Positions 12,631 to 33,679 of a stretch of 64,000 nt of DNA are shown here, in pieces. The DNA is from Candidatus Competibacter sp. (GTDB lineage Bacteria > Pseudomonadota > Gammaproteobacteria > Competibacterales > Competibacteraceae). The stretch is taken from contig DAOTGT010000001.1 in assembly GCA_035447285.1 (NCBI GenBank), forward strand, positions 8,198 to 72,197, given 5' to 3'. The first letter of the stretch is position 1; every line of letters starts with the position of its first letter. The position numbers and the translations under genes are program-made. The notes under the pieces are model-generated. The model ran no database searches and was not told the DNA's origin. It saw nothing but the letters and a program-made list of their open reading frames with translations.

Positions 12631-12667
12631 CACGCCCCACGCCCCACGCCTCACGCCCCACGCCTCA
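12631..12667. repeat. heptanucleotide tandem repeat (5 units)
   Basis: CACGCCC CACGCCC CACGCCT CACGCCC CACGCCT. Read on the minus strand, this is five GGCGTGR heptads starting directly after the pppA TGA stop. Confidence 0.85.
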
Positions 12668-13480
12668 GTCCAGATACCAATCCGGTGGAATCGGATTGTC
12701 GACCGTCGTTGCGCCCGGTTCCTCGGCGGCTTCCAGGGGATCGGCGTCGATGTTGACCACCACGGTGGTCACGTTGTCACTGGCGTCCCGCATCAGCGCA
12801 AGGTGGATGAATGCCTTGACCGCCTCATGACAGTCGTGGTCGCTGTGAATCAGCAGGCGACTGATTTCCTCGTCGCTCACGGTCTTGTTGAGGCCATCGC
12901 TGCACAGCAGGAACATATCGCCGGGATGCAGTGGGTGGATGACTTCGTCGATGAGCATTTCCTCGGCCGATCCGACTGCCCGGGTGATCACGTTGGCCAG
13001 TGGATGGCGGTGCGCGTCCTCGGGTGCGATCAAGCCCTGGTCGACCAATTCCTGTACGTGGCTGTGATCGCGGGTGAGTTGCTGGAGTTGGCCGTCCCGC
13101 AGCCGGTAGATACGGCTGTCTCCCACCCACAGGCAGGCGCACTGCGTCTCGTAGATCAGCAACGCCACCACCGTGCTGCCGATGGTGCGGTTCTGGTAAC
13201 GTTGGGCCGACTCCAGCCGCAAGCGCTGGTTCACCTCTTGCATCTGCTGTCGCACCGAGTCCAGGAAATCCTGCCAGTCGCACGGTGGCGGTATCTGCTG
13301 CAAGCCTTCGATCAACATCTGGCTGGCGATGTCGCCGGCTTCATGTCCGCCCATGCCGTCGGCGACCGCCCAAAGGCCCAGTTCGGGCATCACCAGGCAA
13401 GCATCTTCATTGATCGCTCGCACCATGCCGACATGGCTGCGGCCGGCGGACGACCATTTAAAAGCGGGATTCTGGTTCAT
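12665..13480 (-). CDS. pppA: PP2C-family Ser/Thr phosphatase (T6SS PppA/TagG type)
   Basis: 271 aa. Motifs GMVRAINEDA, WAVADGMGGHEAGDIAS, LLCSDGL and DNVTTVVV. Confidence 0.9.
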   Translation of the reverse strand: MNQNPAFKWSSAGRSHVGMVRAINEDACLVMPELGLWAVADGMGGHEAGDIASQMLIEGLQQIPPPCDWQDFLDSVRQQMQEVNQRLRLESAQRYQNRTIGSTVVALLIYETQCACLWVGDSRIYRLRDGQLQQLTRDHSHVQELVDQGLIAPEDAHRHPLANVITRAVGSAEEMLIDEVIHPLHPGDMFLLCSDGLNKTVSDEEISRLLIHSDHDCHEAVKAFIHLALMRDASDNVTTVVVNIDADPLEAAEEPGATTVDNPIPPDWYLD

Positions 13481-13482
13481 GG

Positions 13483-14268
13483 TTATTCCTCTTCGGCGGC
13501 GGGTGGCTCGCCCGGACGGTGGGCGACGCCGGCGGGTGCTTTCTCATTCCAGCCCCATTGTTGCCAGTTTCCGGCCAACAACGCCGCAAAACCATCGGCT
13601 GGCGGCAGGTCCTTACAGACCAACAAGCAGCGGGCGATCCAGTCGGAACCGTCGGCCCACCACAGGCTGTGCAGGGGAAAGCCGCGCCGCAGCAGATCAC
13701 TGGCCAGAAACGGCGAGACTCCGGTCGACTCCAGCGCTTGCGGCAGCGGACAATACCAGGCGTCACCGGTGTTCGCCGGACTGGTCGCCGGAAGATCGTC
13801 CGTGGGTGGCGCGCCCAGCGCCGCGACCTGTTGGCTGAATCGGTCCAGATCCAGTTCGTCGCGTTCGAGCGCCGCCAGCGCCAGCCGTTCGGCCTGGCGA
13901 AACCAGGCTTCACCGCCGGCCGGCAGCGTGAACAGCGGCCAGCCCGGTGCCAGCGCCGCGGCGATCGCCAGCGGGTAGTAGCGCCCCACCCGGTCCATGC
14001 TGGGCATCATGATACCGGCATAGGCGGCGGGTCCGCACAGACCGGGACCAAGCGCGAAGCGCCAGACCGGGCTGGTGCAGTAGTATTCCTGCCAATTTTC
14101 GCCTAACTGGTCGCGGCTGTGGGCGATGGCGGTCTGCAACCAGCTATCCCAGGGACTGACGAAGCTTTTGGGCAAATGGCGGCCGATGAAATCGCCTCGA
14201 CTGGGCAGCTTGCCGAAGAAGCCAGCCGCCGGACGCGCCAGGGTGGGAGTTACAGTTGTTCCGGGCAC
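13483..14268 (-). CDS. tagF: T6SS-associated protein TagF (ImpM/DUF2094)
   Basis: GFFGKLPSRGDFIGRHLP...W...SPVWRFAL...AGIMMPSMDRVGRYYPL is the TagF signature. The only in-frame ATG (14424) would overlap tssM by 175 nt. A GTG at 14268 would overlap it by only 19 nt. The 5' end is therefore uncertain (14268 or 14424). Confidence 0.85.
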   Translation of the reverse strand: MPGTTVTPTLARPAAGFFGKLPSRGDFIGRHLPKSFVSPWDSWLQTAIAHSRDQLGENWQEYYCTSPVWRFALGPGLCGPAAYAGIMMPSMDRVGRYYPLAIAAALAPGWPLFTLPAGGEAWFRQAERLALAALERDELDLDRFSQQVAALGAPPTDDLPATSPANTGDAWYCPLPQALESTGVSPFLASDLLRRGFPLHSLWWADGSDWIARCLLVCKDLPPADGFAALLAGNWQQWGWNEKAPAGVAHRPGEPPAAEEE

Positions 14269-17200
14269 TGGAAACCCACCATTTCTTGCAGGCTGAAGGG
14301 GTTGGAGGTGCTGCCGGGGGTTTGCATCTGGTAGATGGCCTGCAAACCGCCCGACTGAAACGTGACCTGGAATTGACCGGCGCCCAGCGGCCGGATCTGG
14401 GCCTGGTCGAGCAGCTTGAACCAAGCCCAGGGACCGGTTTCGCTCAGTCGTGCCGGACTACCGCCAGACTGCGACAGCAATTCGATGCGCGCCTGCCCGG
14501 CGGTTCCGGTCCATTGCAGGTTGCCTGGCCGCCCGGCCTGGTTGGCGCTATACGCAAAGGTTTGGCCATCCAGGCTGATCGTGGCCTGACTCACGCCGGG
14601 GCCAAGCTGAAGAGGGGTCATCTGAAAGCGGATCGTGGGATTCTGGTTACCGCCGAACAAAGCGGCGCGCACGACGGCGGCGCGCTGGAAGGCTTGCAGC
14701 GCTTCCGGGGTGATGCTCTGCTCCGGTCCGGTGGGACCGCGCCAGCGCCAGCTACCCTGCGAGGTGTCGACATGGGTTTGCAGATATTGCTTGAAGAAGC
14801 GGTCCATCAGGCCGTTTGGGCCGAAGAAACGGCCGAAGGCGGCCAAGGGGGCATCGGGCGGTCCCGCCAGCGAACGGCTCGGGCCGGAACCAAGACTCTG
14901 ATCGACCCATTGAATCGAATTGAGCGGGGCGACGGAACCTTGCGCGCCGCCCGGCCCGGCGCCACTCCATTGAATCGAGCTGCGGACCAGCGGGTAGCGG
15001 CCGCGCAGGTTGTCCCGAAAAAAAGGGGCGACTTGCGCCGCCTTCCATTGAGCGTTCAAACGATCTCGTAAGCTGCGCACAATATCGGCGCTGTCCCGAG
15101 CCAGCTTATCCAGCAACAGGTTGAAGGGCGGCGGCTTACGGGCGGCATCCACCTGCAATTGATTGACCACGGCGCTGAACTGGTCCTTGAGGTTTTGCGG
15201 CACGGCACCGTCCGGGCTGGACTCCCGGGCACGGGCGATGGCGTTCATGTGGCCGTACAGATCGTTGAGCGCGGACAGGGTTTTATCGAAGGGTGGAATG
15301 GTGCCGCCGACGCCATCGATTTCCCGGCGGTACTGTGCATCGAAACCGGTCAGCCGGGGGTCGATGGCGCACGGTTGTAGCAGTGGGTCGGCGGCGGTGG
15401 CGTCGCTCTTGCCCAGGATGCCGGCGATCTTGTCGGTCAGCGACCGGTCGGCGGCGGGTTTGCCGGCTTCCGGCGGCGCGGGCGGCTGGTCCAGCGCGGT
15501 TTCGCGGGCCACAGTTTCGATCAGGGTTCGCAGTGGCGAGGCTGGCCCCGACAATACTTGCAGGATGTCGAGCGCTTCTTGCGGGTCGTTGAATGCCTTG
15601 ATCTTGACATCGCCGAGAAGATCCTGCCACTGCTTTAGGTAATCACCGAGATACAAGCGGCAGACACCCTCGGCAATGCGCTGGCGGTCGGCCGGATCGC
15701 TGGATATTTGCAGGGTTTGGCCCAGAATCCAGCTTTCGTCGGCCAGGTGAGCCACCAGCTTGGGGTTTTCGTCCAGAAAAAACTGGTAGTAACCCTTATA
15801 GGTATACAAACCAGGAACCCCGCTATTCAGCGCTTGGCCACTTCCGCGATTGAAGACCCTGGGTGTGTCGGGGCCGGCGGCGAGGGTCAGACCGATGTCC
15901 GGCGGCGTGCCGGCACTGCGCTGGCGTTGTTTGAGCCGTTCATAGATACGCTGGGACAGAGGTACCTGGTTCAGTAGATTCCGGCTGCGCTGGATCAACG
16001 CGCTGTCCAGCGCGATGGGCGATTGCAGCGGCGCCTGTTCCAGCAGGGCGTCCAGGTGAGCCGACAGTTGCTCACGCTGCTCGCGGGTGAAGCCGCGCGG
16101 CGGATTGGCCTGCCACTCCTGCTCCATCCAGTCCTTGACGGTCTTGGCGTCGAAGTGCTCGGCGTCGTCCAGCATCAGGTACGCTTTGAGGGTGTCGTAT
16201 AGCGCGCCGGTATTGTCGGTGTTCTGGCGCAGCCGTTCCTCCAGGCGCAATACGATGCGGGGTAGAAAAGCCTGCTGCAGCAGTCGCTGGTAGATCGCCA
16301 GCGCCTCGCCGCCGAGCTTGTCGCCCTGATAGAGCCCAAAGCCCATCAACCAGGGGGTGCCGGCATTGCGGTCGTCGTAGCCGCCAGGGATGGCGCGGGC
16401 GGCGGTCAGCAGGGACAGGGCGGCGGCGGGATCGGTCTGATCGGGGGAGAGCGCCTGAATCTGTCGTTCCACTTCCAGCCGCTGTTTTTCCACCGCCCGC
16501 ACGTAGATTTCATTGCGGGCGTAGCTGGTCAGCCACAGCAGGGCGGCAATCACGGTGACCAGCAGGGCGGTGGCGTAGGCACCGCGCTGGATCCAGCCAC
16601 GCCAGCGCTCCACCTTGAGGTTGGCGCCGGCGATCTCCGCTTCCGGGAAAATGACCTCGCGCAACAACCGGGTGATGAAGTAACTGCGGCCTTTGCCGGA
16701 GAAAGTGCTCAAGGTCTGGCGGTGCAGGCCGAACGTGGTGGCCAGCGAGCTCATCAGCCGGTCGATCGGCGTGCCTTCCTGGGTACCGCTGGTGAAGTAC
16801 ACCCCGCGCAGCAGCACCCGTTCCTCGTAGCGGCTGGGCCGGAACGCTTCCTTGAGAAAACGGTCGGCGACCTGCTTCAGGGACGCGAACTGCTGGGGTA
16901 GGGTGTAGATCAGGTCGCGCCGTTGGGGATCGCGCTCTTCCTGCAGGCGCTGCACCAGCCGGTCGTTCAGTCGCTGTTCCAGCAGTTCGAACTCGGCGGT
17001 GAACTGTTCGACCACGCCTTCCGGGTTGCCGGGGTTGTCCAGCGGGAAGGTCAGACCCCAGACCTGAGCACGTTCTTCCAGGCCCATGTCACCGAAGAAT
17101 TCGATGAAGCCGGCGATCAGGTCGGCCTTGGTGAACTGGACGTAGATGGGGAAGCGGATGCCGAAATGCTCGTGCAGTTCCTGTACCCGCTGCTTGATGG

Positions 17201-18014
17201 CCAGTGCCTGGGCGGAGCGTTCTTCTTCGCTCTGCTGCATCAGATCGGCCAGGCTGATGGCGATGAAGGCGCCGTTGATGGGTCGGCGGCGGCGGTGTTT
17301 TTTCAGCAGGTCCAGAAAACCGCGCCAAGCGGCTCGATCCACTTCCTCGTGGCTGTCCTGGGTGGTGTAGCGGCCGGCGGTGTCCAGCAGCACCGCTTCG
17401 TCGGTAAACCACCAATCGCAGTTGCGGGTGCCGCCCACCCCGCGCACCTTGCCGGCGCCCAGCGGGAAACGCAGCCCGGAATTGATCAGCGCCGTGGTCT
17501 TGCCGGAGCCGGGTGGGCCGATGATGATGTACCAGGGCAACTGGTAGAGGTATTGGGTGCGGCCGGTCTTGCCACCCAGCTTGGCCCGTTTGAGGACGGA
17601 GAGCGCCTCGTCCAAACCTTGCTTGAGCGTGGAGATTTCCTCGGCCGAGGCGGCTTCTTCTTCCTTCTTTTTCTGACGCTCGCGGGCAGCCTGCTCGCTG
17701 TCGCTGGCCGCGCCCTGATCGGCCGTTCCACCCGTTCCGCCTATTCCGCCCGTTCCGATTCCGGCTTGACCGGCCAGATCGGCCAGCATGTTGCGGTTTC
17801 GCTTCAGGGTGTCGATGTAGTAGAGGAGCTGATACAGACCATACATGCCGCCGACGGTCATGATGGTGCCGATCCGGCCCAGATCCGAGGCGAACGGGGT
17901 TTGGCCAGCGACGGCGATCAGGGGACCGAGGTACCAGATCAAACCGGCGACGGCCAGGAAGCCGGTGATGCCGATGAACCAGCGGCTCTTGAAGAAGTTC
18001 AGGATCTTGTTCAT
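14250..18014 (-). CDS. tssM: T6SS membrane complex protein TssM (IcmF)
   Basis: 1254 aa. It has N-terminal TM helices, a Walker A motif (GPPGSGKTT), and the long IcmF-type periplasmic region. Confidence 0.97.
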   Translation of the reverse strand: MNKILNFFKSRWFIGITGFLAVAGLIWYLGPLIAVAGQTPFASDLGRIGTIMTVGGMYGLYQLLYYIDTLKRNRNMLADLAGQAGIGTGGIGGTGGTADQGAASDSEQAARERQKKKEEEAASAEEISTLKQGLDEALSVLKRAKLGGKTGRTQYLYQLPWYIIIGPPGSGKTTALINSGLRFPLGAGKVRGVGGTRNCDWWFTDEAVLLDTAGRYTTQDSHEEVDRAAWRGFLDLLKKHRRRRPINGAFIAISLADLMQQSEEERSAQALAIKQRVQELHEHFGIRFPIYVQFTKADLIAGFIEFFGDMGLEERAQVWGLTFPLDNPGNPEGVVEQFTAEFELLEQRLNDRLVQRLQEERDPQRRDLIYTLPQQFASLKQVADRFLKEAFRPSRYEERVLLRGVYFTSGTQEGTPIDRLMSSLATTFGLHRQTLSTFSGKGRSYFITRLLREVIFPEAEIAGANLKVERWRGWIQRGAYATALLVTVIAALLWLTSYARNEIYVRAVEKQRLEVERQIQALSPDQTDPAAALSLLTAARAIPGGYDDRNAGTPWLMGFGLYQGDKLGGEALAIYQRLLQQAFLPRIVLRLEERLRQNTDNTGALYDTLKAYLMLDDAEHFDAKTVKDWMEQEWQANPPRGFTREQREQLSAHLDALLEQAPLQSPIALDSALIQRSRNLLNQVPLSQRIYERLKQRQRSAGTPPDIGLTLAAGPDTPRVFNRGSGQALNSGVPGLYTYKGYYQFFLDENPKLVAHLADESWILGQTLQISSDPADRQRIAEGVCRLYLGDYLKQWQDLLGDVKIKAFNDPQEALDILQVLSGPASPLRTLIETVARETALDQPPAPPEAGKPAADRSLTDKIAGILGKSDATAADPLLQPCAIDPRLTGFDAQYRREIDGVGGTIPPFDKTLSALNDLYGHMNAIARARESSPDGAVPQNLKDQFSAVVNQLQVDAARKPPPFNLLLDKLARDSADIVRSLRDRLNAQWKAAQVAPFFRDNLRGRYPLVRSSIQWSGAGPGGAQGSVAPLNSIQWVDQSLGSGPSRSLAGPPDAPLAAFGRFFGPNGLMDRFFKQYLQTHVDTSQGSWRWRGPTGPEQSITPEALQAFQRAAVVRAALFGGNQNPTIRFQMTPLQLGPGVSQATISLDGQTFAYSANQAGRPGNLQWTGTAGQARIELLSQSGGSPARLSETGPWAWFKLLDQAQIRPLGAGQFQVTFQSGGLQAIYQMQTPGSTSNPFSLQEMVGFQCPEQL

Positions 18015-18023: not shown

Positions 18024-19388
18024 CTAGTTGACTCGCGCCAGCAGGATGATGTCGACGCGCCGGTTCAGCGCGCGGTTCTGCGGGGTGTTGTTGGGGGCTA
18101 CCGCTTCGGTATCGGCGCGGCCCTCGCTGATGAAACGGCCGGGCTTATCGCTGACGGCGGCCAGCAGTCGGACCACGCTGTCGGCGCGGGCTTTGGAAAG
18201 ATGCCAGTTGGAAGGAAATTGCAAGGTGTGGATCGGAACGCTGTCCGAATGGCCGGTGACCAGCACCCGGCCCTGGACGGTGTTGAGTTCCTTGCCGATC
18301 TGCGCTAGCAGTGGCAGAAAGGCCGGTTTGACGTTGGCGCTGCCCGAGTCGAACAGGCCGTCGCCGCGGATACGGACCGTGGTCTTGTCGGCATCTTCGA
18401 GGACATCGACCAAGCCCTGCCGAATCTGGGGATCGAGAAAAGTGCGCAAGTCGCGCGATACCCGGTTGAGATCGTTGAGAACCTGCGGTTTTGGCGTCGC
18501 GGGCGCCGCCGTCGCGCCGCCACGGCGGACCATGGCCACGGTATCCCCGCGAATGCCGCCGAGCGCGGTCAGCACCGGGTCGGAGGCACTGTTCAGCAGC
18601 CAGTTGAACAGCGCGTAGGCGATCAGCAGCAGAGCGGCCGCCACCGCCGCCACCACCCATAACGGCACGTAGCGGATCAGCGGGTTGTGCTGGTTGAGGA
18701 CGCCGCGCCAGTGTGGAGACAGTTCCCGCTCGAATTCGCCGTGGGCGGTGCGGATGGCGTTGTAGGTGCGCTCCCGTTGTTCGTCCAGTCGACTGCGGCC
18801 GTTATCCAACAGCCGGTAGCGGCCCTGAAAACCGAAGGCCAGGCACAGATACATCAGTTCCAGCAGGTGGAGGTGCTTGCGCGGGTCGGGAAGGATGGCG
18901 TCCAGCAGCTCGAAGAATTTTTCGCCACCCCAGGTTTCGTTGTGAAAGGTGATCAGCAGGCTGCTCTCGCTCCATTCGCTGGCCCGGCCCCAGGGCGTGT
19001 TCAGCACTACCTCGTCCAGTGTGGTGCACAGCACATAGCGAGCCCGGAACACGGTCTTTTCGTGGACGCCGGCATTGCGGGCGCTGACGGTAAACGCTTT
19101 CAGTTCTTCGATCATACGTAGTCGTAAGCGCTCGGGGTCGGGATGCGAGTGAGTGTTTTTCAGGCGCATAATCAGGCTGAGCAGCGGAGCGGCGGCGGCT
19201 TCCAGCGGATTCAGGCCGACGCCGGCCGACACCGGGGCGGATTCGGCCGCTGCCGGGCCGGATGGGCGGGGTGGCGGGAGGGGTGGGGATGACGAGGGTG
19301 GGCTGGCACGCCGGCCGCCTGGCGCCGGCCGAATGATGGTGCGGTCGCCTTCGTCGCCGTCGGCGGCAAACGGATCGTCGATGGTCAC
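18024..19388 (-). CDS. tssL: T6SS TssL (DotU) fused to a C-terminal OmpA/MotB peptidoglycan-binding domain
   Basis: 454 aa. A DotU core (YVLCTTLDEVVLNTPWG...LELMYLCLAFGFQGRYR) is followed by a TM helix, then an OmpA-like end (GHSDSVP...NWHLSKARADSV...NRALNRRVDI). Confidence 0.93.
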   Translation of the reverse strand: MTIDDPFAADGDEGDRTIIRPAPGGRRASPPSSSPPLPPPRPSGPAAAESAPVSAGVGLNPLEAAAAPLLSLIMRLKNTHSHPDPERLRLRMIEELKAFTVSARNAGVHEKTVFRARYVLCTTLDEVVLNTPWGRASEWSESSLLITFHNETWGGEKFFELLDAILPDPRKHLHLLELMYLCLAFGFQGRYRLLDNGRSRLDEQRERTYNAIRTAHGEFERELSPHWRGVLNQHNPLIRYVPLWVVAAVAAALLLIAYALFNWLLNSASDPVLTALGGIRGDTVAMVRRGGATAAPATPKPQVLNDLNRVSRDLRTFLDPQIRQGLVDVLEDADKTTVRIRGDGLFDSGSANVKPAFLPLLAQIGKELNTVQGRVLVTGHSDSVPIHTLQFPSNWHLSKARADSVVRLLAAVSDKPGRFISEGRADTEAVAPNNTPQNRALNRRVDIILLARVN

Positions 19389-20758
19389 TGTTCGGTACTC
19401 GCTGACTCTTTAATGGCCCAGAACGCCATGTCCAAGCCCGGGAACTCGCCGCCGACATGGAAAGCGAAGCCGCCCGAGGTGAGCACTTGTTTCCAGAATT
19501 CGCTGCTGCGGTCGAGCCGGAAATAGATGAAATCGGCCTGATAGGGAATCTCGCGCGGCGCGACCGGCAGCGCGCTGACCCCAATGCCGGGCAAGTGGTG
19601 ATTGACGAACTGCGCGATGCGCTCGACCGGGCCGATCTTGACCTGAGTCGGGAACCGGGCGCGCAGCAGGTCGGTCGCCATGTCGGCGCGGACCGCCAAG
19701 ATGAAGGTGGCCTTGGTCAGCAGCGGGCGTTCGCGGTCGGTGATGATGGCCACCCGGATGCCGTACTGGCGTTCTTCGATCGGAATGCGGATGGCCGCCT
19801 GTTCCTCGACCAGGCTGAGCGAGCGGCGCAGCTCGCCAATCAGGGTGCCGAAGGTTTTTTGCAGGTCGTCATGGTCGTAGGCGGGGAATGACGGTGGCCG
19901 GCGCTTGGTTTTGCCGGTGAAGGTGGACATTTCACCGGCCAGTTGCAGGGCGATCTGGTAGAACGCTTCCGGATGCAGCCCTTGCATGGACGTCAGATGA
20001 GCGAACAACGGTTCGAAGCGGTTGACGGTCTGTAGGCGCAGGAACTGGGCGATGTCCACGCCCGCGCCGCGCGAGGTGCCCGCGCCTGCCACCCGTTCGG
20101 CCAGGGCGTCGCCGCGCTGGTGCAGCAGCCCGAGCACTTCGGTGGCGAAGCCGAGCAGCACCGGTACGCCGCGGCAATCCAGGCAGGGCGGCAGGTAGCC
20201 GGGGTCCAGCACCACCGTCTGATCGGGGCGCTTTTCCTGCACCCGGGCGATGCCGATGCAGGTATGCTCGCTGGAGTCGCGGGTGTCGAGGAACAACCGT
20301 AGCCGGCGCTCGCCGGTTTCGACGAAGGCGCTGTTGTTGGCGGTGTCGACGTTGTTGTCCCGTACCTCGCGGGCCACGGCCCGGTAGCGGGTGGCGGTGT
20401 CCTGTTGCTGTTCGCCGCGTTCCACGTCGGCCATGCCGGTCCGCCGCAGCGGCAGAGCCAGCATGACCCGGGTATCGCGCACGTCAGCGTCGATCGTCAA
20501 CGGCGCGGGTGGCGGATCGTGGTCGGGAATGCTGAACGGCGTGCCGTCAGGCAATAGACCGGAGGCGGTGGTGATGGCGATTTTGCCCAGGGCCAGCGCC
20601 TCCCGATCCAGGGCCAGCTCGGCGACGCCCCAGTCGTAAGGGCGCAGATGGCGGCAGGATTGCCGGACCAGGGCTTCGAGATAGCGGTCCTGTTGTTGGA
20701 AGTGCTGGGGGCGTAGGAACATCCCCTCGGACCACACAACTTTACTGTACCAACTCAT
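19385..20758 (-). CDS. tssK: T6SS baseplate protein TssK
   Basis: 457 aa. The N-terminus MSWYSKVVWSEGMFLRPQHFQQQDRY is the canonical TssK start. A 4-nt overlap couples it to tssL. Confidence 0.95.
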   Translation of the reverse strand: MSWYSKVVWSEGMFLRPQHFQQQDRYLEALVRQSCRHLRPYDWGVAELALDREALALGKIAITTASGLLPDGTPFSIPDHDPPPAPLTIDADVRDTRVMLALPLRRTGMADVERGEQQQDTATRYRAVAREVRDNNVDTANNSAFVETGERRLRLFLDTRDSSEHTCIGIARVQEKRPDQTVVLDPGYLPPCLDCRGVPVLLGFATEVLGLLHQRGDALAERVAGAGTSRGAGVDIAQFLRLQTVNRFEPLFAHLTSMQGLHPEAFYQIALQLAGEMSTFTGKTKRRPPSFPAYDHDDLQKTFGTLIGELRRSLSLVEEQAAIRIPIEERQYGIRVAIITDRERPLLTKATFILAVRADMATDLLRARFPTQVKIGPVERIAQFVNHHLPGIGVSALPVAPREIPYQADFIYFRLDRSSEFWKQVLTSGGFAFHVGGEFPGLDMAFWAIKESASTEQ

Positions 20759-24285: not shown

Positions 24286-25788
24286 ATGGCCGAAACCGAC
24301 ACGAACGCACAGGCCCAGCCCGAAGCCCAAACCGAAACGGTGGAAGCCAGCGAGTTTGGCTCGCTGTTGCAGCGGGAATTCAAGCCTAAATCCGATCAGG
24401 CCAAGCAGGCGGTCGAGAATGCCGTCCACACCTTGGCCGAGCAAGCCTTGCAGCATACGACGCTGATTTCCAAGGACGTGCTCAAGTCCATTGAGTCGAT
24501 GATCGCCGCCATCGACCACAAGCTGAGCGAACAGATCAATCTGATCATGCACCATCCGGAATTCCAGCAACTGGAGGGGGCTTGGCGTGGGCTGAATTAT
24601 CTGGTCTACAACACCGAAACCGACGAAATGTTGAAGATTCGGGTGATGAACATCTCCAAGAAGGAACTAGCAAAAAATCTTAAGAAATTCAAAGGAGTGG
24701 CCTGGGATCAAAGCCCGCTGTTCAAGAAGGTCTACGAAGAAGAGTACGGCCAGTTCGGCGGCGAGCCGTTCGGTTGCCTGGTGGGCGACTACTACTTCGA
24801 CCATAGCCCGCCGGATGTCGAATTGTTGCGGGGAATGTCGCAGATCGCCGCTGCTTCTCACACGCCGTTCATCGCCGCCGCCGCGCCCACGGCCATGCAG
24901 ATGGACTCCTGGCAGGAGTTGAGCAATCCACGCGATCTCACCAAAATCTTCCAGACGCCGGAATATGCCGCTTGGCGGTCGCTGCGCGAATCGGAGGATT
25001 CCCGTTACATTGGTTTGGCCATGCCGCGGTTTCTGGCGCGCCAGCCCTACGGGGCCAAGTCCGACCCAGTCGAGGAGTTCGATTTCGAGGAAGATGTGGA
25101 AGGCGCCGACCACAACAAATATACCTGGGCTAATTCGGCCTATGCGATGGCCACCAACATTACCCGGGCGTTCAAGTTGTATGGCTGGTGTACCCGGATT
25201 CGCGGCATCGAATCCGGCGGCGCGGTGGAGAATCTACCGACCCATACCTTTCCGACCGACGATGGCGGTGTGGACATGAAGTGTCCCACCGAAATTGCCA
25301 TCAGCGACCGGCGCGAGGCGGAGTTGGCCAAGAACGGCTTCATGCCGCTGATCCACAAGAAAAACAGTGACTTCGCGGCTTTCATCGGTGCCCAGTCACT
25401 GCAAAAACCGTCCGAGTACGACGATCCGGATGCCACCGCCAACGCCAATCTGTCGGCCCGTCTGCCTTATCTATTCGCGGTCTGCCGGTTCGCGCACTAC
25501 CTGAAATGCATGGTGCGCGACAAGATTGGCTCGTTTAAGGAGCGCGATCAGTTGCAGCTCTGGTTGCAGGAATGGATTTACAACTATGTGGACGGCAATC
25601 CCGCCATTTCCAGCGACGAGACCAAGGCCATGAAACCCTTGGCGGCCGCCGAGGTGGTGGTGGAGGAGGTGGAAGGCAATCCAGGCTACTACACCTCGAA
25701 GTTTTTCCTGCGCCCCCACTATCAGTTGGAAGGGCTGACCGTGTCGCTACGCCTAGTGTCCAAACTGCCTTCGATCAAGGGGGGTTAG
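24286..25788 (+). CDS. tssC: T6SS sheath large subunit TssC (VipB)
   Basis: 500 aa. Blocks HHPEFQQLEGAWRGLNYLV and PFGCLVGDYYF, plus the C-terminal LTVSLRLVSKLPS. Confidence 0.97.
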   Translation: MAETDTNAQAQPEAQTETVEASEFGSLLQREFKPKSDQAKQAVENAVHTLAEQALQHTTLISKDVLKSIESMIAAIDHKLSEQINLIMHHPEFQQLEGAWRGLNYLVYNTETDEMLKIRVMNISKKELAKNLKKFKGVAWDQSPLFKKVYEEEYGQFGGEPFGCLVGDYYFDHSPPDVELLRGMSQIAAASHTPFIAAAAPTAMQMDSWQELSNPRDLTKIFQTPEYAAWRSLRESEDSRYIGLAMPRFLARQPYGAKSDPVEEFDFEEDVEGADHNKYTWANSAYAMATNITRAFKLYGWCTRIRGIESGGAVENLPTHTFPTDDGGVDMKCPTEIAISDRREAELAKNGFMPLIHKKNSDFAAFIGAQSLQKPSEYDDPDATANANLSARLPYLFAVCRFAHYLKCMVRDKIGSFKERDQLQLWLQEWIYNYVDGNPAISSDETKAMKPLAAAEVVVEEVEGNPGYYTSKFFLRPHYQLEGLTVSLRLVSKLPSIKGG

Positions 25789-26040: not shown

Positions 26041-26529
26041 ATGGCTGATGCATTTTTGAAAATTGGCGACGTGAAGGGCGAGTGCAAGGACCACGAGTTC
26101 AAGGAATGGATTGAGGTGCTGAGCTGGAGCTGGGGCGCTAGCCAGATGGGTACCGCCGGGCATGGTACCGGCTTGGGCGCCAGCAAGGTACAGATGCAGG
26201 ATTTCAGCTACACCATGCACTTCTGCGCCGCTTCGCCCGAACTACTGCTGTCGTGCTGCTCGGGTCATCACTACCCCGAGGCTACCCTGGTGATGCGCAA
26301 GCCGACCGGCAAGGACGGTGGGCAGAAGAAGTTCCTGGAGTTCAAGTTCAAGGACGTGATCGTCAGCAGCTACCAGACCGGCGGCAGCGATGGTGCTGGC
26401 CTGCCGATCGAGAGCCTGTCGCTGAACTTCACCAACATGACCCAGGAGTACTTCACCCAGGATGAGAAGGGTGCGACCAAATCGGCCGGCAAGGCCGGTT
26501 GGGATGTCAAGACCAACAAGAAGGTCTGA
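26041..26529 (+). CDS. hcp: T6SS tube protein Hcp (TssD)
   Basis: 162 aa. MADAFLKIGDVKGECKDHEFKEWIEVLSWSWG is a typical Hcp N-terminus. A GAGAGGA RBS precedes the start. Confidence 0.95.
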   Translation: MADAFLKIGDVKGECKDHEFKEWIEVLSWSWGASQMGTAGHGTGLGASKVQMQDFSYTMHFCAASPELLLSCCSGHHYPEATLVMRKPTGKDGGQKKFLEFKFKDVIVSSYQTGGSDGAGLPIESLSLNFTNMTQEYFTQDEKGATKSAGKAGWDVKTNKKV

Positions 26530-26639: not shown

Positions 26640-27470
26640 ATGCAAGCCGAGCAAAGTTTACGCGAAGGCCGTTTGCAGGAAGCTCTGGCTGAATTGCAGG
26701 CACAGGTGCGCAAGGAACCCGCCAACGCCAAATACCGCATCTTTCTGTTTCAGTTGCTGGCGGTACTGGGTCAATGGGAGCGGGCATCGAACCAGTTGAA
26801 CGTGCTGGAGGAGATGGATCCCGAGTCCCTGCCGATGGTGCAGACCTACCGCGAAGCCCTCCGCTGCGAGTTGCTACGTGCCGAGGTGTTCGCCGGTCGC
26901 CGGTCGCCGCTGATCTTCGGTGACCCCGAGCCTTGGATGGCATTGTTGCTGGAGGCATTGCAATTGACCGCCGGTGGCCATCATGCCCAAGCCCAGATGG
27001 CTCGCGACCAGGCGTTCGAGGGCGCGGCGACGACGGCGGGAACGCTGGACGGCCAGCCGTTCGAATGGCTCGCCGATGCCGACCCGCGGTTGGGGCCGAT
27101 GCTGGAGGCCGTCATCAACGGTCGCTACTACTGGGTTCCATGGCAGCGGATCCGCACGCTCGCGCTCGAACAGCCCAGCGACCTACGCGACTACGTCTGG
27201 ATGCCCGCCGGCTTTACCTGGGCCAACGGCGGCGAAGCCGTGGGCCTGATTCCGTCGCGCTATCCCGGTTCACAGGCCAGCGCCGATCCACAGGTGCAAC
27301 TGGGTCGCAAGACCGAATGGCTGGAGCAGGAGAGCGGGATCTATGTGGGTATTGGCCAGCGTATGTTGGCCACCGATCAGAACGAATATCCGTTGCTCGA
27401 TATTCGACGAATCGATCTGGCCGCTCCGGAAGCCGCGCCACAGGCGACGACTGATTCCGACGATGGCTGA
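26640..27470 (+). CDS. tagJ: T6SS accessory protein TagJ (ImpE family)
   Basis: MQAEQSLREGRLQEALAELQAQVRKEPANAKYRIFLFQLLAVLGQWERA is the ImpE/TagJ TPR-like N-terminus. The position between hcp and tssE matches H1-T6SS. Listed ORF 26499 is over-extended. Confidence 0.85.
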   Translation: MQAEQSLREGRLQEALAELQAQVRKEPANAKYRIFLFQLLAVLGQWERASNQLNVLEEMDPESLPMVQTYREALRCELLRAEVFAGRRSPLIFGDPEPWMALLLEALQLTAGGHHAQAQMARDQAFEGAATTAGTLDGQPFEWLADADPRLGPMLEAVINGRYYWVPWQRIRTLALEQPSDLRDYVWMPAGFTWANGGEAVGLIPSRYPGSQASADPQVQLGRKTEWLEQESGIYVGIGQRMLATDQNEYPLLDIRRIDLAAPEAAPQATTDSDDG

Positions 27471-27978
27471 ACTCACACCCAGGGAGCGACTGCAACCTTC
27501 GTTGTTGGATCGCCTGACCGACGACGAGCCGGACCAGCCGCAGGAGTCGCGCGACAAGCGAGTGTTGTCCACGAACCGTCTGCGCGAGTGCGTGCTGCGC
27601 GATCTGGCTTGGTTGTTCAACGCTAGTCGGATGCCGGATGACAGCGAAATCGAGCGCTATCCCTTCGCCGCCCGGTCGACCATCAATTTTGGCTTGCCAC
27701 CGCTGGCCGGGGTGACGGCCCATAGCCTGGACGTGGATGGACTGGAGCTTGTTCTGCGTCAAGTGATCTTGGATTTCGAACCACGCATCCTGCGTAATTC
27801 GTTGCGGGTGCGCGCGTCGTTTACCGAGGAGCGCATGAGCCATAACGCCCTGACCTTCGAGATCGAGGGAGAGTTGTGGGGGCAGCCCATGCCCCTACAA
27901 CTCTACTGGAAAACCGAGATCGACCTGGAAAGCGGTCAGGTCAAGGTCGAGGAAGCCAGCCGGACGAGGGAACACTAA
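27463..27978 (+). CDS. tssE: T6SS baseplate protein TssE (gp25-like)
   Basis: RLQPSLLDRLTDDEP...LRECVLRDLAWLFN...INFGLP is the TssE signature. The ATG at 27463 overlaps the tagJ stop. Confidence 0.93.
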   Translation: MAELTPRERLQPSLLDRLTDDEPDQPQESRDKRVLSTNRLRECVLRDLAWLFNASRMPDDSEIERYPFAARSTINFGLPPLAGVTAHSLDVDGLELVLRQVILDFEPRILRNSLRVRASFTEERMSHNALTFEIEGELWGQPMPLQLYWKTEIDLESGQVKVEEASRTREH

Positions 27979-30856: not shown

Positions 30857-30994
30857 GGTGAAGGGTTAAAGGCCAGGGGTTAAAGGTGAGCGCGGTAAAG
30901 GGCCGAAGGCCGGCCGGCGACCTCCTCGCCTGACCCAGGCTCTAGTCCTTGGCCTCGTCTGTTGACCTGTCAATGCCGCTGGGAGTCTGAACCT

Positions 30995-33679
30995 ATGGCC
31001 GAAATCAGTCGCGTCACCGCATTCGGTAAGCTGAATAGTCTGGGCTATAAAGCCATCGAAAGCGCCACCGTTTTCTGCAAGCTGCGCGGTAATCCTTATG
31101 TGGAACTGGTGCACTGGTTGCATCAAATCCTGCAATTACAGGATTCAGACCTGCACCGAATCATCCAACACTTCAGCTTGAATCCGTCGCGGCTGGCCAA
31201 GGATTTCACCGAGGCACTGGACCGGTTGCCGCGCGGCTCAACTTCAGTTTCCGATCTATCCTCCCATGTCGATGCGGCGGTGGAAAACGGCTGGGTGTGC
31301 GCGACCCTGATGTTCAAGGACAGCCAAGTGCGCACCGGGCACCTGCTGGTCGGGATGTTGCGGACACCGGACTTGCGCAACGTGTTGTTGGCCATCTCGC
31401 GCGAATTCGACAAGATCAAACTGGACGAACTGGGCGACCGGTTTAACGATATCGTCGCCGCCTCGCCGGAAACCGGGTTGCGCGCCTCGGATGGATCTCA
31501 GGTCGGTGGTGGCGCGGCGCCCGGCGAGGCCAGCGAAGCCGTGGCGCCAGCACAGATGGGCAAACAGGAAGCCTTGCAACGCTTTTCGGTGGATCTGACC
31601 GAGCGGGCGCGCAAGGGCGAACTGGATCCCATCGTCGGCCGCGACGAGGAAATCCGCCAGATCGTCGATATTCTGATGCGCCGCCGCCAGAACAACCCGA
31701 TCCTGACCGGCGAGGCCGGCGTGGGCAAGACGGCGGTGGTGGAGGGGTTCGCTCAGCGCATCGCGTCCGGGGATGTGCCGCCGCCGCTCAAGGACGTGAC
31801 GTTGCGGGTGCTGGATGTGGGTCTGCTGCAAGCCGGTGCCAGCATGAAAGGCGAGTTCGAGAACCGGCTTCGGCAAGTGATCGACGAAGTGCAATCCTCC
31901 CCCAAGCCGATCATTTTGTTCATCGACGAGGCGCACACTCTGATTGGCGCGGGTGGCGCGGCCGGCACCGGTGACGCCGCCAACCTGCTCAAGCCAGCGT
32001 TGGCGCGCGGTAAATTGCGCACCATCGCCGCCACTACTTGGGCCGAGTACAAGAAGCATATCGAGAAAGACCCCGCACTGACCCGCCGCTTTCAGGTGGT
32101 GCAGGTCGGCGAGCCCAGCGAGGAAAAAACCATCCTGATGATGCGTGGCATGGCTTCGACCATGGAGCAACATCACCGGGTGCTGATTCTCGACGAGGCG
32201 CTGGAGGTGGCGGTCAAGCTGTCGCATCGCTACATCCCGGCCCGGCAGTTGCCGGATAAGGCAGTCAGCCTGCTGGATACCGCCAGCGCCCGGGTGGCGA
32301 TCAGTCTGCACGCGGTGCCGGCCGAGGTCGAGGACTGCCGCCGCCGCATCGAAGGGCTGAACACCGAACTGGAAATTATCGGCCGCGAAACGGCGGTCGG
32401 TATCGATACCGCTCAGCGTCAGGCCGATGCCACCGAGAAATTGCAAGCCGAGCAGCTGCGACTGGGAGAACTGGAGGCCCGTTGGCAGGAAGAAAAAGGC
32501 GTGGTCGATCAGATCCTGGAGCTGCGCGCCAAGTTGCGCGGTGACGGTGGCGCGGTCGATACCGCCGCCGTGGCCGAACCCGATCCAGAACGGCAGACTT
32601 GGTTGGCGGAGCTGAAGGATCTCCAAGGCCGATTGCACGAATTGCAGGGCGAAACGCCGCTGATCCTACCCAGCGTGGACGCTCAGGCGGTGGCGTCGGT
32701 GGTCGCCGACTGGACCGGCATTCCGGTCGGGCGCATGGTCAAGAACGAAATCGAAACCGTGCTCAAGCTGGCCGACATCATCAACCGCCGCATCATCGGC
32801 CAGCGTCATGCCCTGGACATGATTGCCCGGCGGATTCAGACCTCGCGCGCCGCATTGGACAACCCCAGCAAGCCGATTGGCGTGTTCATGCTGGCCGGCC
32901 CGTCCGGGGTGGGCAAAACCGAGACAGCGCTGGCGCTGGCCGAGGCGCTGTACGGCGGCGAGCAGAACGTCATCACCATCAACATGAGCGAGTTCCAGGA
33001 AGCGCACACCGTTTCCACTCTCAAGGGCGCGCCGCCCGGCTACGTCGGTTACGGTGAGGGTGGGGTATTGACCGAGGCAGTGCGCCGCCGGCCCTACAGC
33101 GTGGTGCTGCTGGACGAGGTGGAAAAGGCCCATCACGACGTGCACGAAATCTTCTTCCAGGTGTTCGACAAGGGGTGGATGGAAGACGGCGAAGGGCGGC
33201 ACATCGATTTCAAGAACACCCTGATCCTGCTCACCACCAACGTCGGTACCGATTTGATCATGGGCATGTGCAAGGACCCGGATTTGTTGCCCGATCCCGA
33301 TGGCTTGGCCAAGGCACTGCGGGAACCTTTGCTCAAGGTGTTTCCGCCGGCGCTGCTGGGGCGATTGGTGACGATTCCCTATTACCCGCTCAGTGACGAG
33401 ATGATCGGCGATATCGTGCGCCTGCAACTGGGGCGGATTCAGAAACGGGTTTTGGCAAACCACAAGGTTCCGTTCGACTACGACGACGAGGTGGTGAAGC
33501 TGATCGTCAGCCGCTGCACGGAGCTTGAGAGTGGCGGGCGGATGGTGGACGCCATTTTGACCAACACCGTGTTGCCCGCGATCAGCCAAGAATTTTTGAA
33601 TCGGATGGTGGAAGGCCAGCCGGTTTCGCGGGTGCGGATTAAGGTCGTGGATGGCGAGTTTGGTTTCGAGTTCGAGTGA
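30995..33679 (+). CDS. clpV: T6SS AAA+ ATPase ClpV (TssH)
   Basis: A Clp N-domain is followed by two AAA+ modules (GEAGVGKTAVVEG..., GPSGVGKTETALALAE...). A GGGAG RBS precedes the ATG at 30995. Listed ORF 30962 is over-extended. Confidence 0.97.
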   Translation: MAEISRVTAFGKLNSLGYKAIESATVFCKLRGNPYVELVHWLHQILQLQDSDLHRIIQHFSLNPSRLAKDFTEALDRLPRGSTSVSDLSSHVDAAVENGWVCATLMFKDSQVRTGHLLVGMLRTPDLRNVLLAISREFDKIKLDELGDRFNDIVAASPETGLRASDGSQVGGGAAPGEASEAVAPAQMGKQEALQRFSVDLTERARKGELDPIVGRDEEIRQIVDILMRRRQNNPILTGEAGVGKTAVVEGFAQRIASGDVPPPLKDVTLRVLDVGLLQAGASMKGEFENRLRQVIDEVQSSPKPIILFIDEAHTLIGAGGAAGTGDAANLLKPALARGKLRTIAATTWAEYKKHIEKDPALTRRFQVVQVGEPSEEKTILMMRGMASTMEQHHRVLILDEALEVAVKLSHRYIPARQLPDKAVSLLDTASARVAISLHAVPAEVEDCRRRIEGLNTELEIIGRETAVGIDTAQRQADATEKLQAEQLRLGELEARWQEEKGVVDQILELRAKLRGDGGAVDTAAVAEPDPERQTWLAELKDLQGRLHELQGETPLILPSVDAQAVASVVADWTGIPVGRMVKNEIETVLKLADIINRRIIGQRHALDMIARRIQTSRAALDNPSKPIGVFMLAGPSGVGKTETALALAEALYGGEQNVITINMSEFQEAHTVSTLKGAPPGYVGYGEGGVLTEAVRRRPYSVVLLDEVEKAHHDVHEIFFQVFDKGWMEDGEGRHIDFKNTLILLTTNVGTDLIMGMCKDPDLLPDPDGLAKALREPLLKVFPPALLGRLVTIPYYPLSDEMIGDIVRLQLGRIQKRVLANHKVPFDYDDEVVKLIVSRCTELESGGRMVDAILTNTVLPAISQEFLNRMVEGQPVSRVRIKVVDGEFGFEFE

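What the first reader, a model, noticed from the sequence alone, without database searches (positions are those of the whole stretch)
12665..33679. H1-T6SS-like cluster with only 11 of 13 core genes
Gene order and content reproduce P. aeruginosa H1-T6SS almost gene for gene: pppA-tagF-tssM-tssL-tssK-(gap)-tagH, divergent from tssA-tssB-tssC-hcp-tagJ-tssE-tssF-tssG-clpV. Four things are absent: the tssJ lipoprotein, the ppkA kinase with tagQRST, and vgrG/PAAR. All eleven remaining core genes look intact and translationally coupled, and their codon usage matches the host. The system therefore appears functional rather than decaying. That raises three questions: how the membrane complex assembles, how it is triggered, and which spike it uses.
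Basis: partly seen in the sequence, partly recalled or inferred. Interest (0 to 1): 0.7.

Follow-up and report, generated by a model that had tools for sequence, protein, structure and literature searches.

The report
TssJ-less H1-type T6SS of Competibacter
This is an intact, strongly conserved type VI secretion gene cluster of the wastewater bacterium Candidatus Competibacter; it lacks the outer-membrane lipoprotein TssJ, the PpkA kinase and its own spike genes, which makes it an undescribed example of an already known class of TssJ-less systems and of moderate, not high, interest.

Summary
Window 12665-33679 carries 15 genes in the Pseudomonas H1-T6SS order: pppA-tagF-tssM-tssL-tssK-tagH, divergent from tssA-tssB-tssC-hcp-tagJ-tssE-tssF-tssG-clpV. 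Profile searches found no tssJ, vgrG, PAAR or Ser/Thr kinase anywhere in the 64 kb.

The host is Candidatus Competibacter phosphatis or a very close relative. The same reduced layout, between the same housekeeping flanks, occurs in every Competibacteraceae locus recovered. It also occurs in three other gammaproteobacterial genomes with different flanks. True Pseudomonas-type loci carry tssJ, ppkA and a tagT-like gene at the expected places.

All 15 genes are under purifying selection (dN/dS 0.03-0.16), and their GC3 matches the flanking genes. The cluster is therefore maintained, not decaying.

The surprise is limited. Functional TssJ-less T6SSs are established in Agrobacterium and Acinetobacter. 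A published survey found no TssJ in 27.5% of non-Acinetobacter T6SS genomes. Orphan vgrG/PAAR genes are commonplace, and TagF-Fha control works without PpkA.

I could not search a whole Competibacter genome, so supply of the missing parts in trans remains untested.

Verdict: new member of a known kind, interest about 0.3.

The parts
12665..13480 (-). pppA (tagG), PP2C-type Ser/Thr phosphatase
   Evidence: NCBIfam Stp1_PP2C_phos E=2.8e-65. PP2C motifs are intact (NEDA, ADGMGGH, GDSR, DGL, DNVT). dN/dS 0.059.
13483..14271 (-). tagF, post-translational repressor. The longest ORF runs to 14424, but relatives start about 262 aa before the stop, overlapping the tssM stop by 22 nt.
   Evidence: TIGR03373 / PF09867 TagF_N E=6e-48. 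The GKLPSRGDF and PSMDRVGRYYP motifs are conserved.
14250..18014 (-). tssM (IcmF), 1254 aa. Has a Walker A motif GPPGSGKT at aa 166 and two lineage-specific insertions (aa ~86-119 and ~1014-1051).
   Evidence: TIGR03348, 1155 bits. Pfam IcmF-related_N, IcmF-related and IcmF_C. Insertions seen. C-terminus conserved. Walker A.
18024..19388 (-). tssL, long form with a C-terminal OmpA-like peptidoglycan-binding domain
   Evidence: TIGR03349 DotU/TssL at aa 60-269 and TIGR03350 type_VI_ompA at aa 314-448
19385..20758 (-). tssK, baseplate subunit
   Evidence: TIGR03353, 478 bits. 97% identical to the TssK of Competibacteraceae genome CP065007.1.
20759..20869 (.). 111-bp intergenic stretch at the position where tssJ sits in canonical H1-type loci. 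No ORF.
   Evidence: In L029, L041, L043 and L021 a Pfam- or NCBIfam-verified tssJ lies between tagH and tssK.
20870..22465 (-). tagH (Fha), FHA-domain scaffold. The likely start is MPLRL at 22465; the longest ORF reaches 22522.
   Evidence: TIGR03354, 352 bits. Pfam FHA and T6SS_FHA_C. The phosphothreonine-binding signature is intact (GR, SxxH, TNG).
22466..22627 (.). 162-bp divergent intergenic region between tagH and tssA; presumed promoter region
   Evidence: Sequence. The scan found no sigma-70 consensus site. The promoter type is unknown.
22628..23695 (+). tssA, short TssA1 type, 355 aa
   Evidence: TIGR03363, 285 bits. Relatives have calls of 353-355 aa.
23761..24279 (+). tssB, small sheath subunit
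   Evidence: TIGR03358, 197 bits. dN/dS 0.028.
24286..25788 (+). tssC, large sheath subunit
   Evidence: TIGR03355, 747 bits. Best PDB match is 5n8n_B, P. aeruginosa TssC1, at 876 bits.
26041..26529 (+). hcp (tssD), tube protein
   Evidence: PF05638, 120 bits. Best PDB match is 1y12, PA0085 Hcp1.
26640..27470 (+). tagJ (ImpE family, TPR plus ImpE domain)
   Evidence: PF07024 ImpE E=1.5e-48. Relatives have calls of 275-276 aa.
27463..27978 (+). tssE, gp25-like baseplate wedge protein
   Evidence: TIGR03357 and PF04965
27978..29855 (+). tssF, baseplate subunit
   Evidence: TIGR03359, 678 bits
29819..30856 (+). tssG, baseplate subunit
   Evidence: TIGR03347, 362 bits
30995..33679 (+). clpV (tssH), sheath-recycling AAA+ ATPase
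   Evidence: TIGR03345, 1275 bits. 99% identical to proteins named Candidatus Competibacter phosphatis TssH.
33881..35151 (+). Variable low-GC slot after clpV. Holds orfX177 (33881-34414, GC 0.49, no family hit) and orfY224 (34477-35151, Pfam Bflower). Possible cargo; membership in the system is not shown.
   Evidence: The content of this slot differs between L091, L092 and L093.

Best explanation
This is a genuine, vertically inherited and selectively maintained H1-type T6SS cluster of Candidatus Competibacter (family Competibacteraceae). It belongs to a sub-lineage whose locus lost tssJ, ppkA and tagQRST and carries no vgrG.

Proposed mechanism:
- TssL anchors to peptidoglycan through its own OmpA-like domain. 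Together with TssM, which has an intact Walker A motif, it forms a TssJ-independent membrane complex of the kind known from Agrobacterium tumefaciens.
- TssEFGK plus the short TssA build the baseplate. Hcp is the tube and TssBC the sheath. ClpV, helped by TagJ, recycles the sheath.
- Firing is controlled after translation by TagF binding to TagH (Fha). PppA reverses a threonine phosphorylation that must be made by a kinase encoded elsewhere.
- The VgrG-PAAR spike and most effectors are encoded at other loci. The variable low-GC slot after clpV may hold a small cargo.

Shown here: gene content, absence of the four gene sets from the 64 kb, conservation of the layout, purifying selection, and intact functional motifs.

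Inferred: that the machine fires, the TssJ-independent assembly, a kinase in trans, and a spike in trans.
For: Identity and order of the 15 genes.

Absence of TssJ, VgrG, PAAR and Ser/Thr kinase from all six frames of the window. Positive control.

Same reduced layout in independent assemblies:
- All 14 Competibacteraceae loci that cover the junction have tagH-tssK adjacent.
- All 11 that reach the end of pppA have the convergent DUF934/SiR genes next.
- The set includes the complete genome CP065007.1, a Ca. Competibacter denitrificans-type contig and Ca. Contendobacter odensis.
- clpV is followed by the conserved TPR-methyltransferase genes, never by vgrG, in L091-L093.
- Three further gammaproteobacterial genomes (L010, L095, L096) share the layout with different flanks.

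Canonical Pseudomonas-type loci carry TssJ (TIGR03352), a 1041-aa PpkA-like kinase and a LolD-like (TagT-like) ATPase at the expected positions.

Selection and composition:
- dN/dS is 0.03-0.16 for all 15 genes, against 0.08-0.20 for the flanks.
- GC3 equals that of housekeeping genes.

Motifs: the FHA, PP2C and TagF motifs and the TssM Walker A motif are intact.

The clade of Competibacteraceae plus L009 has 100/100 bootstrap support; adding L010 gives 69/100.

Precedents:
- Agrobacterium secretes Hcp with no TssJ homolog (PMC3702570).
- TssJ is absent from 27.5% of surveyed non-Acinetobacter T6SS genomes (PMC10564176).
- TagF acts through Fha without PpkA (PMC5995506).
Against: - There is no expression or secretion data. 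No searched paper connects Competibacter with a T6SS: one search found none, and the two hits are not about a Competibacter T6SS (one read; the other judged from title and abstract).
- No vgrG, PAAR, kinase or tssJ could be located elsewhere, because no whole genome was accessible. A VgrG search seeded from the relative L009 returned no Competibacter protein among its best 120 hits.
- VgrG is essential in every studied T6SS. If none exists in the genome, the machine cannot fire as proposed.
- A retained phosphatase without a cognate kinase in the locus is unexplained.
- The placement next to the Pseudomonas H1 clade is not resolved by my tree (18/100 bootstrap).
Confidence: 0.7

Rival explanations
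1. The cluster is a decaying remnant. Losing tssJ, ppkA and vgrG disabled it, and the remaining genes are drifting.
For: Two core genes and the activating kinase are missing from the locus. Some MAG loci show a split tssM or tssF (L003, L019, L039, L094, L096).
Against: All 15 genes are full length. dN/dS is 0.03-0.16, as low as or lower than the neighbouring housekeeping genes. The layout persists through divergence with dS above 1, across Competibacter and Contendobacter. Catalytic and binding motifs are intact. The split genes occur in fragmented or long-read MAG assemblies, where neighbouring genes are split too, so they look like assembly errors.
Confidence: 0.04
2. The missing tssJ and ppkA, as well as vgrG and PAAR, are supplied by a second, complete T6SS locus in the same genome. 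The reduced cluster would then be a dependent partner, not a TssJ-independent machine.
For: A different T6SS arrangement exists in relatives. It runs clpV-hcp-vgrG-DUF6931-PAAR ... tssK-tssL-tssM-tagF, with a large Ser/Thr kinase beside it. It is seen in L009, and a partial version appears in a Competibacteraceae MAG, L094. Many bacteria carry several T6SSs (established knowledge).
Against: That second arrangement also lacks tssJ within 10 kb, so it could not supply TssJ. There is no evidence that it sits in the same genome as the window-type cluster. TssJ binds its cognate TssM specifically in studied systems (PMC3213119), and sharing across systems that are 40-64% identical would be unusual. 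The TssK search listed only one TssK on the 3.6-Mb genome CP065007.1, but only hits of 56% identity or more were shown.
Confidence: 0.12
3. TssJ has been functionally replaced. The replacement is either a non-homologous envelope protein encoded elsewhere, like TsmK in Acinetobacter, or the lineage-specific periplasmic insertion in TssM.
For: TssM of Competibacteraceae and L009 carries an insertion of about 40 aa, rich in Gly, Ser and Pro, with a duplicated SSIQWSG / NSIQWV motif at aa 1014-1051. It is absent from all TssJ-positive homologs aligned. In Acinetobacter a GS-linker in TssM plus TsmK compensate for the missing TssJ (PMC10564176).
Against: The insertion is absent from L010, which is in or near the same clade and also lacks TssJ. 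It is absent from the other TssJ-less clades as well (Massilia, Caballeronia, rhizobia). It lies about 200 aa before the C-terminus, not directly before the C-terminal helix as in Acinetobacter. The last ~150 residues are conserved with TssJ-positive homologs. The cluster contains no extra gene that could act as a TsmK analogue; all 15 ORFs are accounted for.
Confidence: 0.15
4. The absences are artefacts of a metagenome assembly: a chimeric join or a collapsed region in one contig.
For: The window probably comes from a 73.5-kb metagenomic contig.
Against: The same junctions appear in more than 14 independent assemblies from different studies, including a closed 3.6-Mb chromosome. These junctions are tagH-tssK, pppA-DUF934 and clpV followed by the TPR-methyltransferase genes.
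Confidence: 0.01

Closest known systems
Pseudomonas aeruginosa H1-T6SS (PA0070-PA0091; the T6SS-i3 type). Represented here by the loci of Metapseudomonas otitidis (L029), Pseudomonas mangrovi (L041) and Phytopseudomonas daroniae (L043).
   Same: - Same two divergent operons and the same order: tagH-(tssJ)-tssK-tssL-tssM-tagF-pppA, and tssA-tssB-tssC-hcp-tagJ-tssE-tssF-tssG-clpV.
- Short TssA1-type TssA.
- TagJ present.
- TssL with an OmpA-like domain.
- TssB and TssC are about 79% identical, TssK 52-53%, TssM 41-42%.
- Best solved-structure matches are PA TssC1 and Hcp1.
   Different: - No tssJ between tagH and tssK.
- No ppkA or tagT-like gene after pppA, whereas both are present in L029 and L041.
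- No vgrG after clpV.
- TssM is 75-90 aa longer, with two insertions.
- The sister relationship to the Pseudomonas clade is not resolved (18/100 bootstrap).
Agrobacterium tumefaciens C58 T6SS (imp/hcp operons)
   Same: - No TssJ homolog, yet Hcp secretion works (PMC3702570).
- The block fha-tssK-tssL-tssM-tagF-pppA is in the same order (my knowledge of the atu4330-4343 locus).
- TagJ/ImpE is present.
- The TssM Walker A motif is present.
- TagF represses through Fha (PMC5995506).
   Different: - Agrobacterium keeps ppkA, fuses TagF to PppA and has vgrG in the locus (PMC5995506, PMC3702570).
- The rhizobial loci in my sample (L083, L084, L087) are the most distant branch, with 46-49% TssK identity and 68% TssC identity.
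Acinetobacter baumannii/baylyi T6SS, with its non-canonical membrane complex
   Same: TssJ is absent from a functional T6SS. The lineage has its own modification of the TssM periplasmic region (PMC10564176).
   Different: Acinetobacter compensates with TsmK, TslA, TagX and a C-terminal GS-linker. None of these is in the Competibacter cluster, and the TssM C-terminus here has no such linker. It is a different T6SS subtype.
T6SS loci with Fha but no PpkA (Vibrio cholerae, E. coli O157, Yersinia pestis)
   Same: tagH is retained and needed even though the cognate kinase is absent from the locus (PMC13584744).
   Different: Those loci also lack the phosphatase. Here PppA is retained and strongly conserved (dN/dS 0.059).

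Membership tests
Canonical proteobacterial T6SS (T6SS-i), 13 core genes TssA-M | Sheath TssB/TssC, tube Hcp, baseplate TssE/F/G/K, TssA and ClpV are present and intact | tested here: met
   The NCBIfam equivalog models all pass their cut-offs; Hcp passes by Pfam. All are under purifying selection.
Canonical proteobacterial T6SS (T6SS-i), 13 core genes TssA-M | Inner-membrane complex proteins TssL and TssM | tested here: met
   TIGR03349 plus TIGR03350 for TssL; TIGR03348 for TssM
Canonical proteobacterial T6SS (T6SS-i), 13 core genes TssA-M | Outer-membrane lipoprotein TssJ (PF12790 / TIGR03352) | tested here: not met
   A TssJ HMM built from 51 verified homologs finds none in the 64-kb window or in any Competibacteraceae locus. 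Presence elsewhere in the genome could not be tested.
Canonical proteobacterial T6SS (T6SS-i), 13 core genes TssA-M | Spike protein VgrG (TssI) and PAAR tip | tested here: not met
   No VgrG or PAAR HMM hit in the window or in L091-L096. 'Not met' applies to the locus only. The genome as a whole could not be tested.
H1-type T6SS (P. aeruginosa HSI-I layout) | Two divergent operons in the order fha-tssJ-tssK-tssL-tssM-tagF-pppA-ppkA and tssA-B-C-hcp-tagJ-tssE-F-G-clpV-vgrG | tested here: inconclusive
   The order of all 15 genes present is identical to L029, L041 and L043. However, tssJ, ppkA and vgrG are missing, and the tree does not resolve a sister relationship.
H1-type T6SS (P. aeruginosa HSI-I layout) | Accessory genes tagJ, tagF and a short TssA1-type tssA | tested here: met
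   PF07024, TIGR03373 and TIGR03363
H1-type T6SS (P. aeruginosa HSI-I layout) | Complete threonine phosphorylation pathway: PpkA kinase, PppA phosphatase, Fha, and the TagQRST sensor module | tested here: not met
   PppA and Fha are present. No Ser/Thr kinase occurs in six frames of the window. There is no room for tagQRST, because pppA is followed directly by DUF934/SiR. L029 and L041 have the kinase and a TagT-like ATPase.
TssJ-less T6SS-i (Agrobacterium-like TssLM membrane complex) | No tssJ in the locus, with tssL, tssM and all cytoplasmic core genes intact and conserved | tested here: met
TssJ-less T6SS-i (Agrobacterium-like TssLM membrane complex) | No TssJ homolog anywhere in the genome | not testable with these tools
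   Only stretches of about 20 kb of the relatives' genomes can be fetched. A whole-genome scan of CP065007.1 is needed.
TssJ-less T6SS-i (Agrobacterium-like TssLM membrane complex) | Hcp secretion or contact-dependent killing demonstrated | not testable with these tools
   The organism is uncultured. Searches found no paper reporting a Competibacter T6SS (one of the two hits was read).
Acinetobacter-type non-canonical membrane complex | TsmK and a C-terminal GS-linker in TssM | tested here: not met
   The cluster has no extra gene. The TssM C-terminus aligns without a linker to TssJ-positive homologs.

The most novel reading that the evidence does not exclude
The clade of Competibacteraceae plus L009 lost TssJ. 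It compensated with a lineage-specific periplasmic insertion in TssM: aa 1014-1051, rich in Gly, Ser and Pro, with a duplicated SSIQWSG / NSIQWV motif. This insertion would let the TssM tip oligomerise or reach the outer membrane unaided. That would be a second, independent solution, parallel to the Acinetobacter GS-linker, arising inside an otherwise H1-type machine. PppA would be kept because a non-cognate Hanks-type kinase has taken over Fha phosphorylation.
Probability: 0.12. Interest if true: 0.5.

Novelty: new member of a known kind. Interest (0 to 1): 0.3.

Why it matters
- Competibacter and Contendobacter are the main glycogen-accumulating competitors of phosphate-accumulating bacteria in wastewater treatment. 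A conserved contact-dependent weapon in the whole family could bear on that competition, and I found no paper describing it.
- For T6SS biology, the cluster is a natural deletion variant of the best-studied system, H1-T6SS, lacking tssJ and ppkA together. A close TssJ-positive versus TssJ-negative comparison could help explain what TssJ is needed for.
- The general phenomenon is already documented, so this adds an example rather than a new principle.

Tried and rejected
1. I looked for a Competibacter VgrG by searching with the VgrG of the relative L009 and matching 'longest contig' sizes to known Competibacter genomes. The best 120 hits were Planctomycetes and others, and none lay on a Competibacter genome. 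This is uninformative, not evidence of absence.
2. I tested orfX177, downstream of clpV, as a hidden TssJ or effector. It has no Pfam or NCBIfam hit. The single-sequence AlphaFold model has pLDDT 31.5 and is unusable, so no fold search was run. The gene is missing from L092 and L093, so it cannot be a conserved structural part.
3. The weak TssJ-HMM hit at 43536-44081 is a lipoprotein cytochrome c (PSCyt1). Only the signal peptide matched.
4. TssM against solved structures gave no hit at E<1e-5, so no structure-based view of the TssJ-binding site was possible.
5. I checked for an Acinetobacter-style C-terminal GS-linker in TssM. It is absent.
6. A sigma-70 promoter scan of the divergent intergenic region found no site.
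7. Literature searches for Competibacter with 'type VI secretion' or 'T6SS' found no paper reporting a Competibacter T6SS. One search returned none. Of the two hits, one was read and is irrelevant; the other was judged only from its title and abstract.
8. I considered a misassembly and rejected it, because the same junctions appear in many independent assemblies.

Full report
**What is there.** On the minus strand lie six genes:
- pppA (12665-13480)
- tagF (13483-~14271)
- tssM (14250-18014)
- tssL, with a C-terminal OmpA-like domain (18024-19388)
- tssK (19385-20758)
- tagH/fha (20870-~22465)

On the plus strand lie nine genes:
- tssA (22628-23695)
- tssB (23761-24279)
- tssC (24286-25788)
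- hcp (26041-26529)
- tagJ/ImpE (~26640-27470)
- tssE (~27463-27978)
- tssF (~27978-29855)
- tssG (29819-30856)
- clpV (~30995-33679)

All hits pass curated cut-offs with two exceptions. PppA scores 220 against a cut-off of 230 bits. Hcp is below the NCBIfam cut-off but passes Pfam. Several longest ORFs overrun the real starts, as gene calls in near-identical contigs show.

The stretch between tssK and tagH is 111 bp with no ORF. Left of pppA lie convergent DUF934 and sulfite/nitrite reductase genes. Right of clpV lie two small ORFs and then TPR-methyltransferase genes, an alpha/beta hydrolase, glgB and relA.

- TssJ, from 51 homologs seeded on eight Pfam-verified proteins
- VgrG, from 60 proteins
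- PAAR
- PpkA-like kinases, from 32 proteins

Against all six frames of the 64-kb window, none gives a hit. The one weak TssJ hit is a lipoprotein cytochrome c. The same HMMs find TssJ and the kinase in the control locus L029. So 11 of 13 core genes are present, and tssJ, vgrG, PAAR and ppkA are absent from the window. tagQRST have no room in the locus.

**Whose genome is it, and is the layout conserved?** TssK and ClpV homologs at 80-100% identity are named Candidatus Competibacteraceae, Competibacter and Contendobacter. ClpV is 99% identical to proteins named Ca. Competibacter phosphatis.

I fetched loci around TssK and ClpV homologs. I also fetched 80 loci from species-representative genomes. 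All were annotated against the window's proteins and the HMMs. The results:
- Every Competibacteraceae locus that covers the junction (14 loci, 80-97% TssK identity) has tagH directly followed by tssK. The set includes the closed chromosome CP065007.1, a Ca. C. denitrificans-type contig and Ca. Contendobacter odensis.
- All 11 loci that reach the end of pppA have DUF934 and the reductase next.
- In the three loci that cover the clpV end, the conserved TPR-methyltransferase genes follow and vgrG never does.
- Three more gammaproteobacterial genomes (L010, L095, L096; 58-60% TssK identity) have the same reduced layout with other flanks.
- Pseudomonas-group loci (L029, L041, L043, L061, L072) have tagH-tssJ-tssK-tssL-tssM-tagF-pppA-kinase. 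In L029 and L041 a LolD-like ATPase, the TagT position, comes next.

The reduced layout is therefore an old, inherited feature of a clade. It is not an accident of one contig.

**Is it decaying?** No. Against CP065007.1 (dS 0.20-0.47), all 15 genes have dN/dS between 0.028 (tssB) and 0.163 (tagH). The neighbouring housekeeping genes give 0.08-0.20. More distant comparisons give the same picture.

GC3 is 0.73-0.83 in the cluster and 0.69-0.82 in housekeeping genes of the window.

Functional motifs are intact:
- the FHA phosphothreonine-binding residues
- the PP2C metal-binding motifs of PppA
- the conserved TagF motifs GKLPxRGDF and PSxDRVGRY
- a Walker A motif in TssM

The claim of translational coupling is only half right. 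Seven of the 13 same-strand junctions overlap or lie within 9 nt, and the rest are 65-252 nt apart.

**How H1-like is it?** Gene order is identical to the Pseudomonas-type loci for all genes present, including the diagnostic hcp-tagJ-tssE and tagF-pppA arrangements. Identity to M. otitidis proteins is 79% for TssB and TssC, 53% for TssK and 42% for TssM. Among solved structures the best matches are P. aeruginosa TssC1 (876 bits, next best 521) and Hcp1.

A neighbour-joining tree of TssK+TssL+TssM gave these bootstrap values:
- Competibacteraceae as a group: 100/100
- Competibacteraceae plus L009: 100/100
- adding L010: 69/100
- the link of this TssJ-less clade to the Pseudomonas H1 clade: only 18/100

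'H1-type layout' is therefore justified. 'Sister of H1' is not established.

**How it most likely works.** The cytoplasmic machine is complete apart from the spike. For the envelope part, the best-supported model is a TssL-TssM complex without TssJ, anchored to peptidoglycan by the OmpA-like domain of TssL.

This has direct precedent. A. tumefaciens secretes Hcp although no TssJ homolog exists (PMC3702570). Acinetobacter also lacks TssJ, and there TsmK and a TssM GS-linker compensate (PMC10564176). The same paper reports neither TssJ nor TsmK nor the linker in 27.5% of 1096 other genomes with tssM and tssB. In my 80 loci, 29 have no tssJ within 10 kb of tssK. These include separate Massilia/Caballeronia/Pseudomonas and rhizobial clades.

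Regulation most likely runs through TagF binding Fha, which operates without PpkA (PMC5995506). The retained and strongly constrained PppA, together with intact FHA residues, suggests that a kinase encoded elsewhere still phosphorylates a target. This is inference. The spike must be supplied from elsewhere in the genome. That is common for T6SSs but was not verified here.

**What could not be done.** That test asks whether tssJ, vgrG, PAAR and ppkA lie elsewhere, or in a second T6SS. A VgrG search seeded from L009 gave no Competibacter hit among 120 and is uninformative. A different T6SS arrangement with hcp-vgrG-DUF6931-PAAR and a large kinase exists in relatives (L009). It too lacks tssJ, and I cannot say whether it shares a genome with the window-type cluster.

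**Novelty and score.** Two literature searches found no paper reporting a Competibacter T6SS. One search returned none. One search returned two incidental hits: one was read and is irrelevant, and the other was judged from its title and abstract only. The instance therefore appears undescribed in the searched literature, and it is conserved across a family important in wastewater treatment. The kind of system is known, and each 'missing' item has ordinary precedents. I rate it a new member of a known kind, interest about 0.3.

The most novel reading still open concerns the clade-specific Gly/Ser/Pro-rich insertion in the TssM periplasmic domain (aa 1014-1051). It might compensate for the loss of TssJ. 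Its absence from TssJ-less L010 and from the other TssJ-less clades argues against a general role. I give this reading a probability of about 0.12.

Noticed in passing
window 33680-35151; L091:12686-14834; L092:12721-13401; L093:12686-12770: The slot between clpV and the conserved TPR-methyltransferase genes is variable and low in GC. The window has orfX177 (GC 0.49, GC3 0.59, no family hit) plus orfY224 (Pfam Bflower). The 97%-identical relative CP065007.1 instead has a 158-aa HExxH protein (IHELAHT), a 145-aa lipoprotein-like protein and an orfY ortholog. Contendobacter has only the orfY-like gene, and another Competibacter has nothing there. It looks like an exchangeable effector/immunity slot.
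   Followed up: partly
window 14250-18014 (TssM aa 86-119 and aa 1014-1051): TssM has two lineage-specific insertions. One is a Gly-rich plus KKKEEE stretch near the N-terminal membrane segments. The other is a periplasmic insertion of about 40 aa, rich in Gly, Ser and Pro, with a duplicated SSIQWSG / NSIQWV motif. The second is shared with L009 but not with L010 or with any TssJ-positive homolog.
   Followed up: partly
L014 (Ca. Contendobacter odensis) hcp versus window 26041-26529: Hcp of Contendobacter odensis is only 40% identical to the window's Hcp, while another Competibacter (L093) is 81% identical and the neighbouring genes stay at 58-88%. This suggests hcp was replaced within the conserved cluster in some lineages.
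   Followed up: no
L009 (ERZ25072999, 5.18-Mb contig) 1-21350: A sister T6SS arrangement: clpV-hcp-vgrG-DUF6931-PAAR, then astacin-like and M91 peptidase genes, then an FHA-guanylate cyclase gene, then tssK-tssL-tssM-tagF, with a 1281-aa Ser/Thr kinase on the opposite strand. No tssJ and no pppA.
   Followed up: partly
window 35132-37952: Two tandem genes encoding TPR-repeat plus class I methyltransferase fusion proteins follow the T6SS cluster, then a small PP-binding (carrier protein) gene in relatives. There are two to three copies in every Competibacteraceae locus seen. Function unknown.
   Followed up: no
window 43686-44081 (+): A small lipoprotein with a CxxCH haem motif (Pfam PSCyt1, Planctomycete cytochrome c). 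It overlaps a 163-aa ORF on the opposite strand. It was the only weak hit of the TssJ HMM, through its signal peptide.
   Followed up: yes
L003, L019, L039, L094, L096: tssM, tssF, tssL or tagH are split into several ORFs in some metagenome-assembled genomes. In L094 neighbouring housekeeping genes are split as well, so these look like assembly or frameshift errors rather than pseudogenes.
   Followed up: partly
window 1-9000: The left end of the window has lower GC (0.50-0.57) and carries glycosyltransferase and TPR-protein genes, possibly an exopolysaccharide region. Not examined.
   Followed up: no
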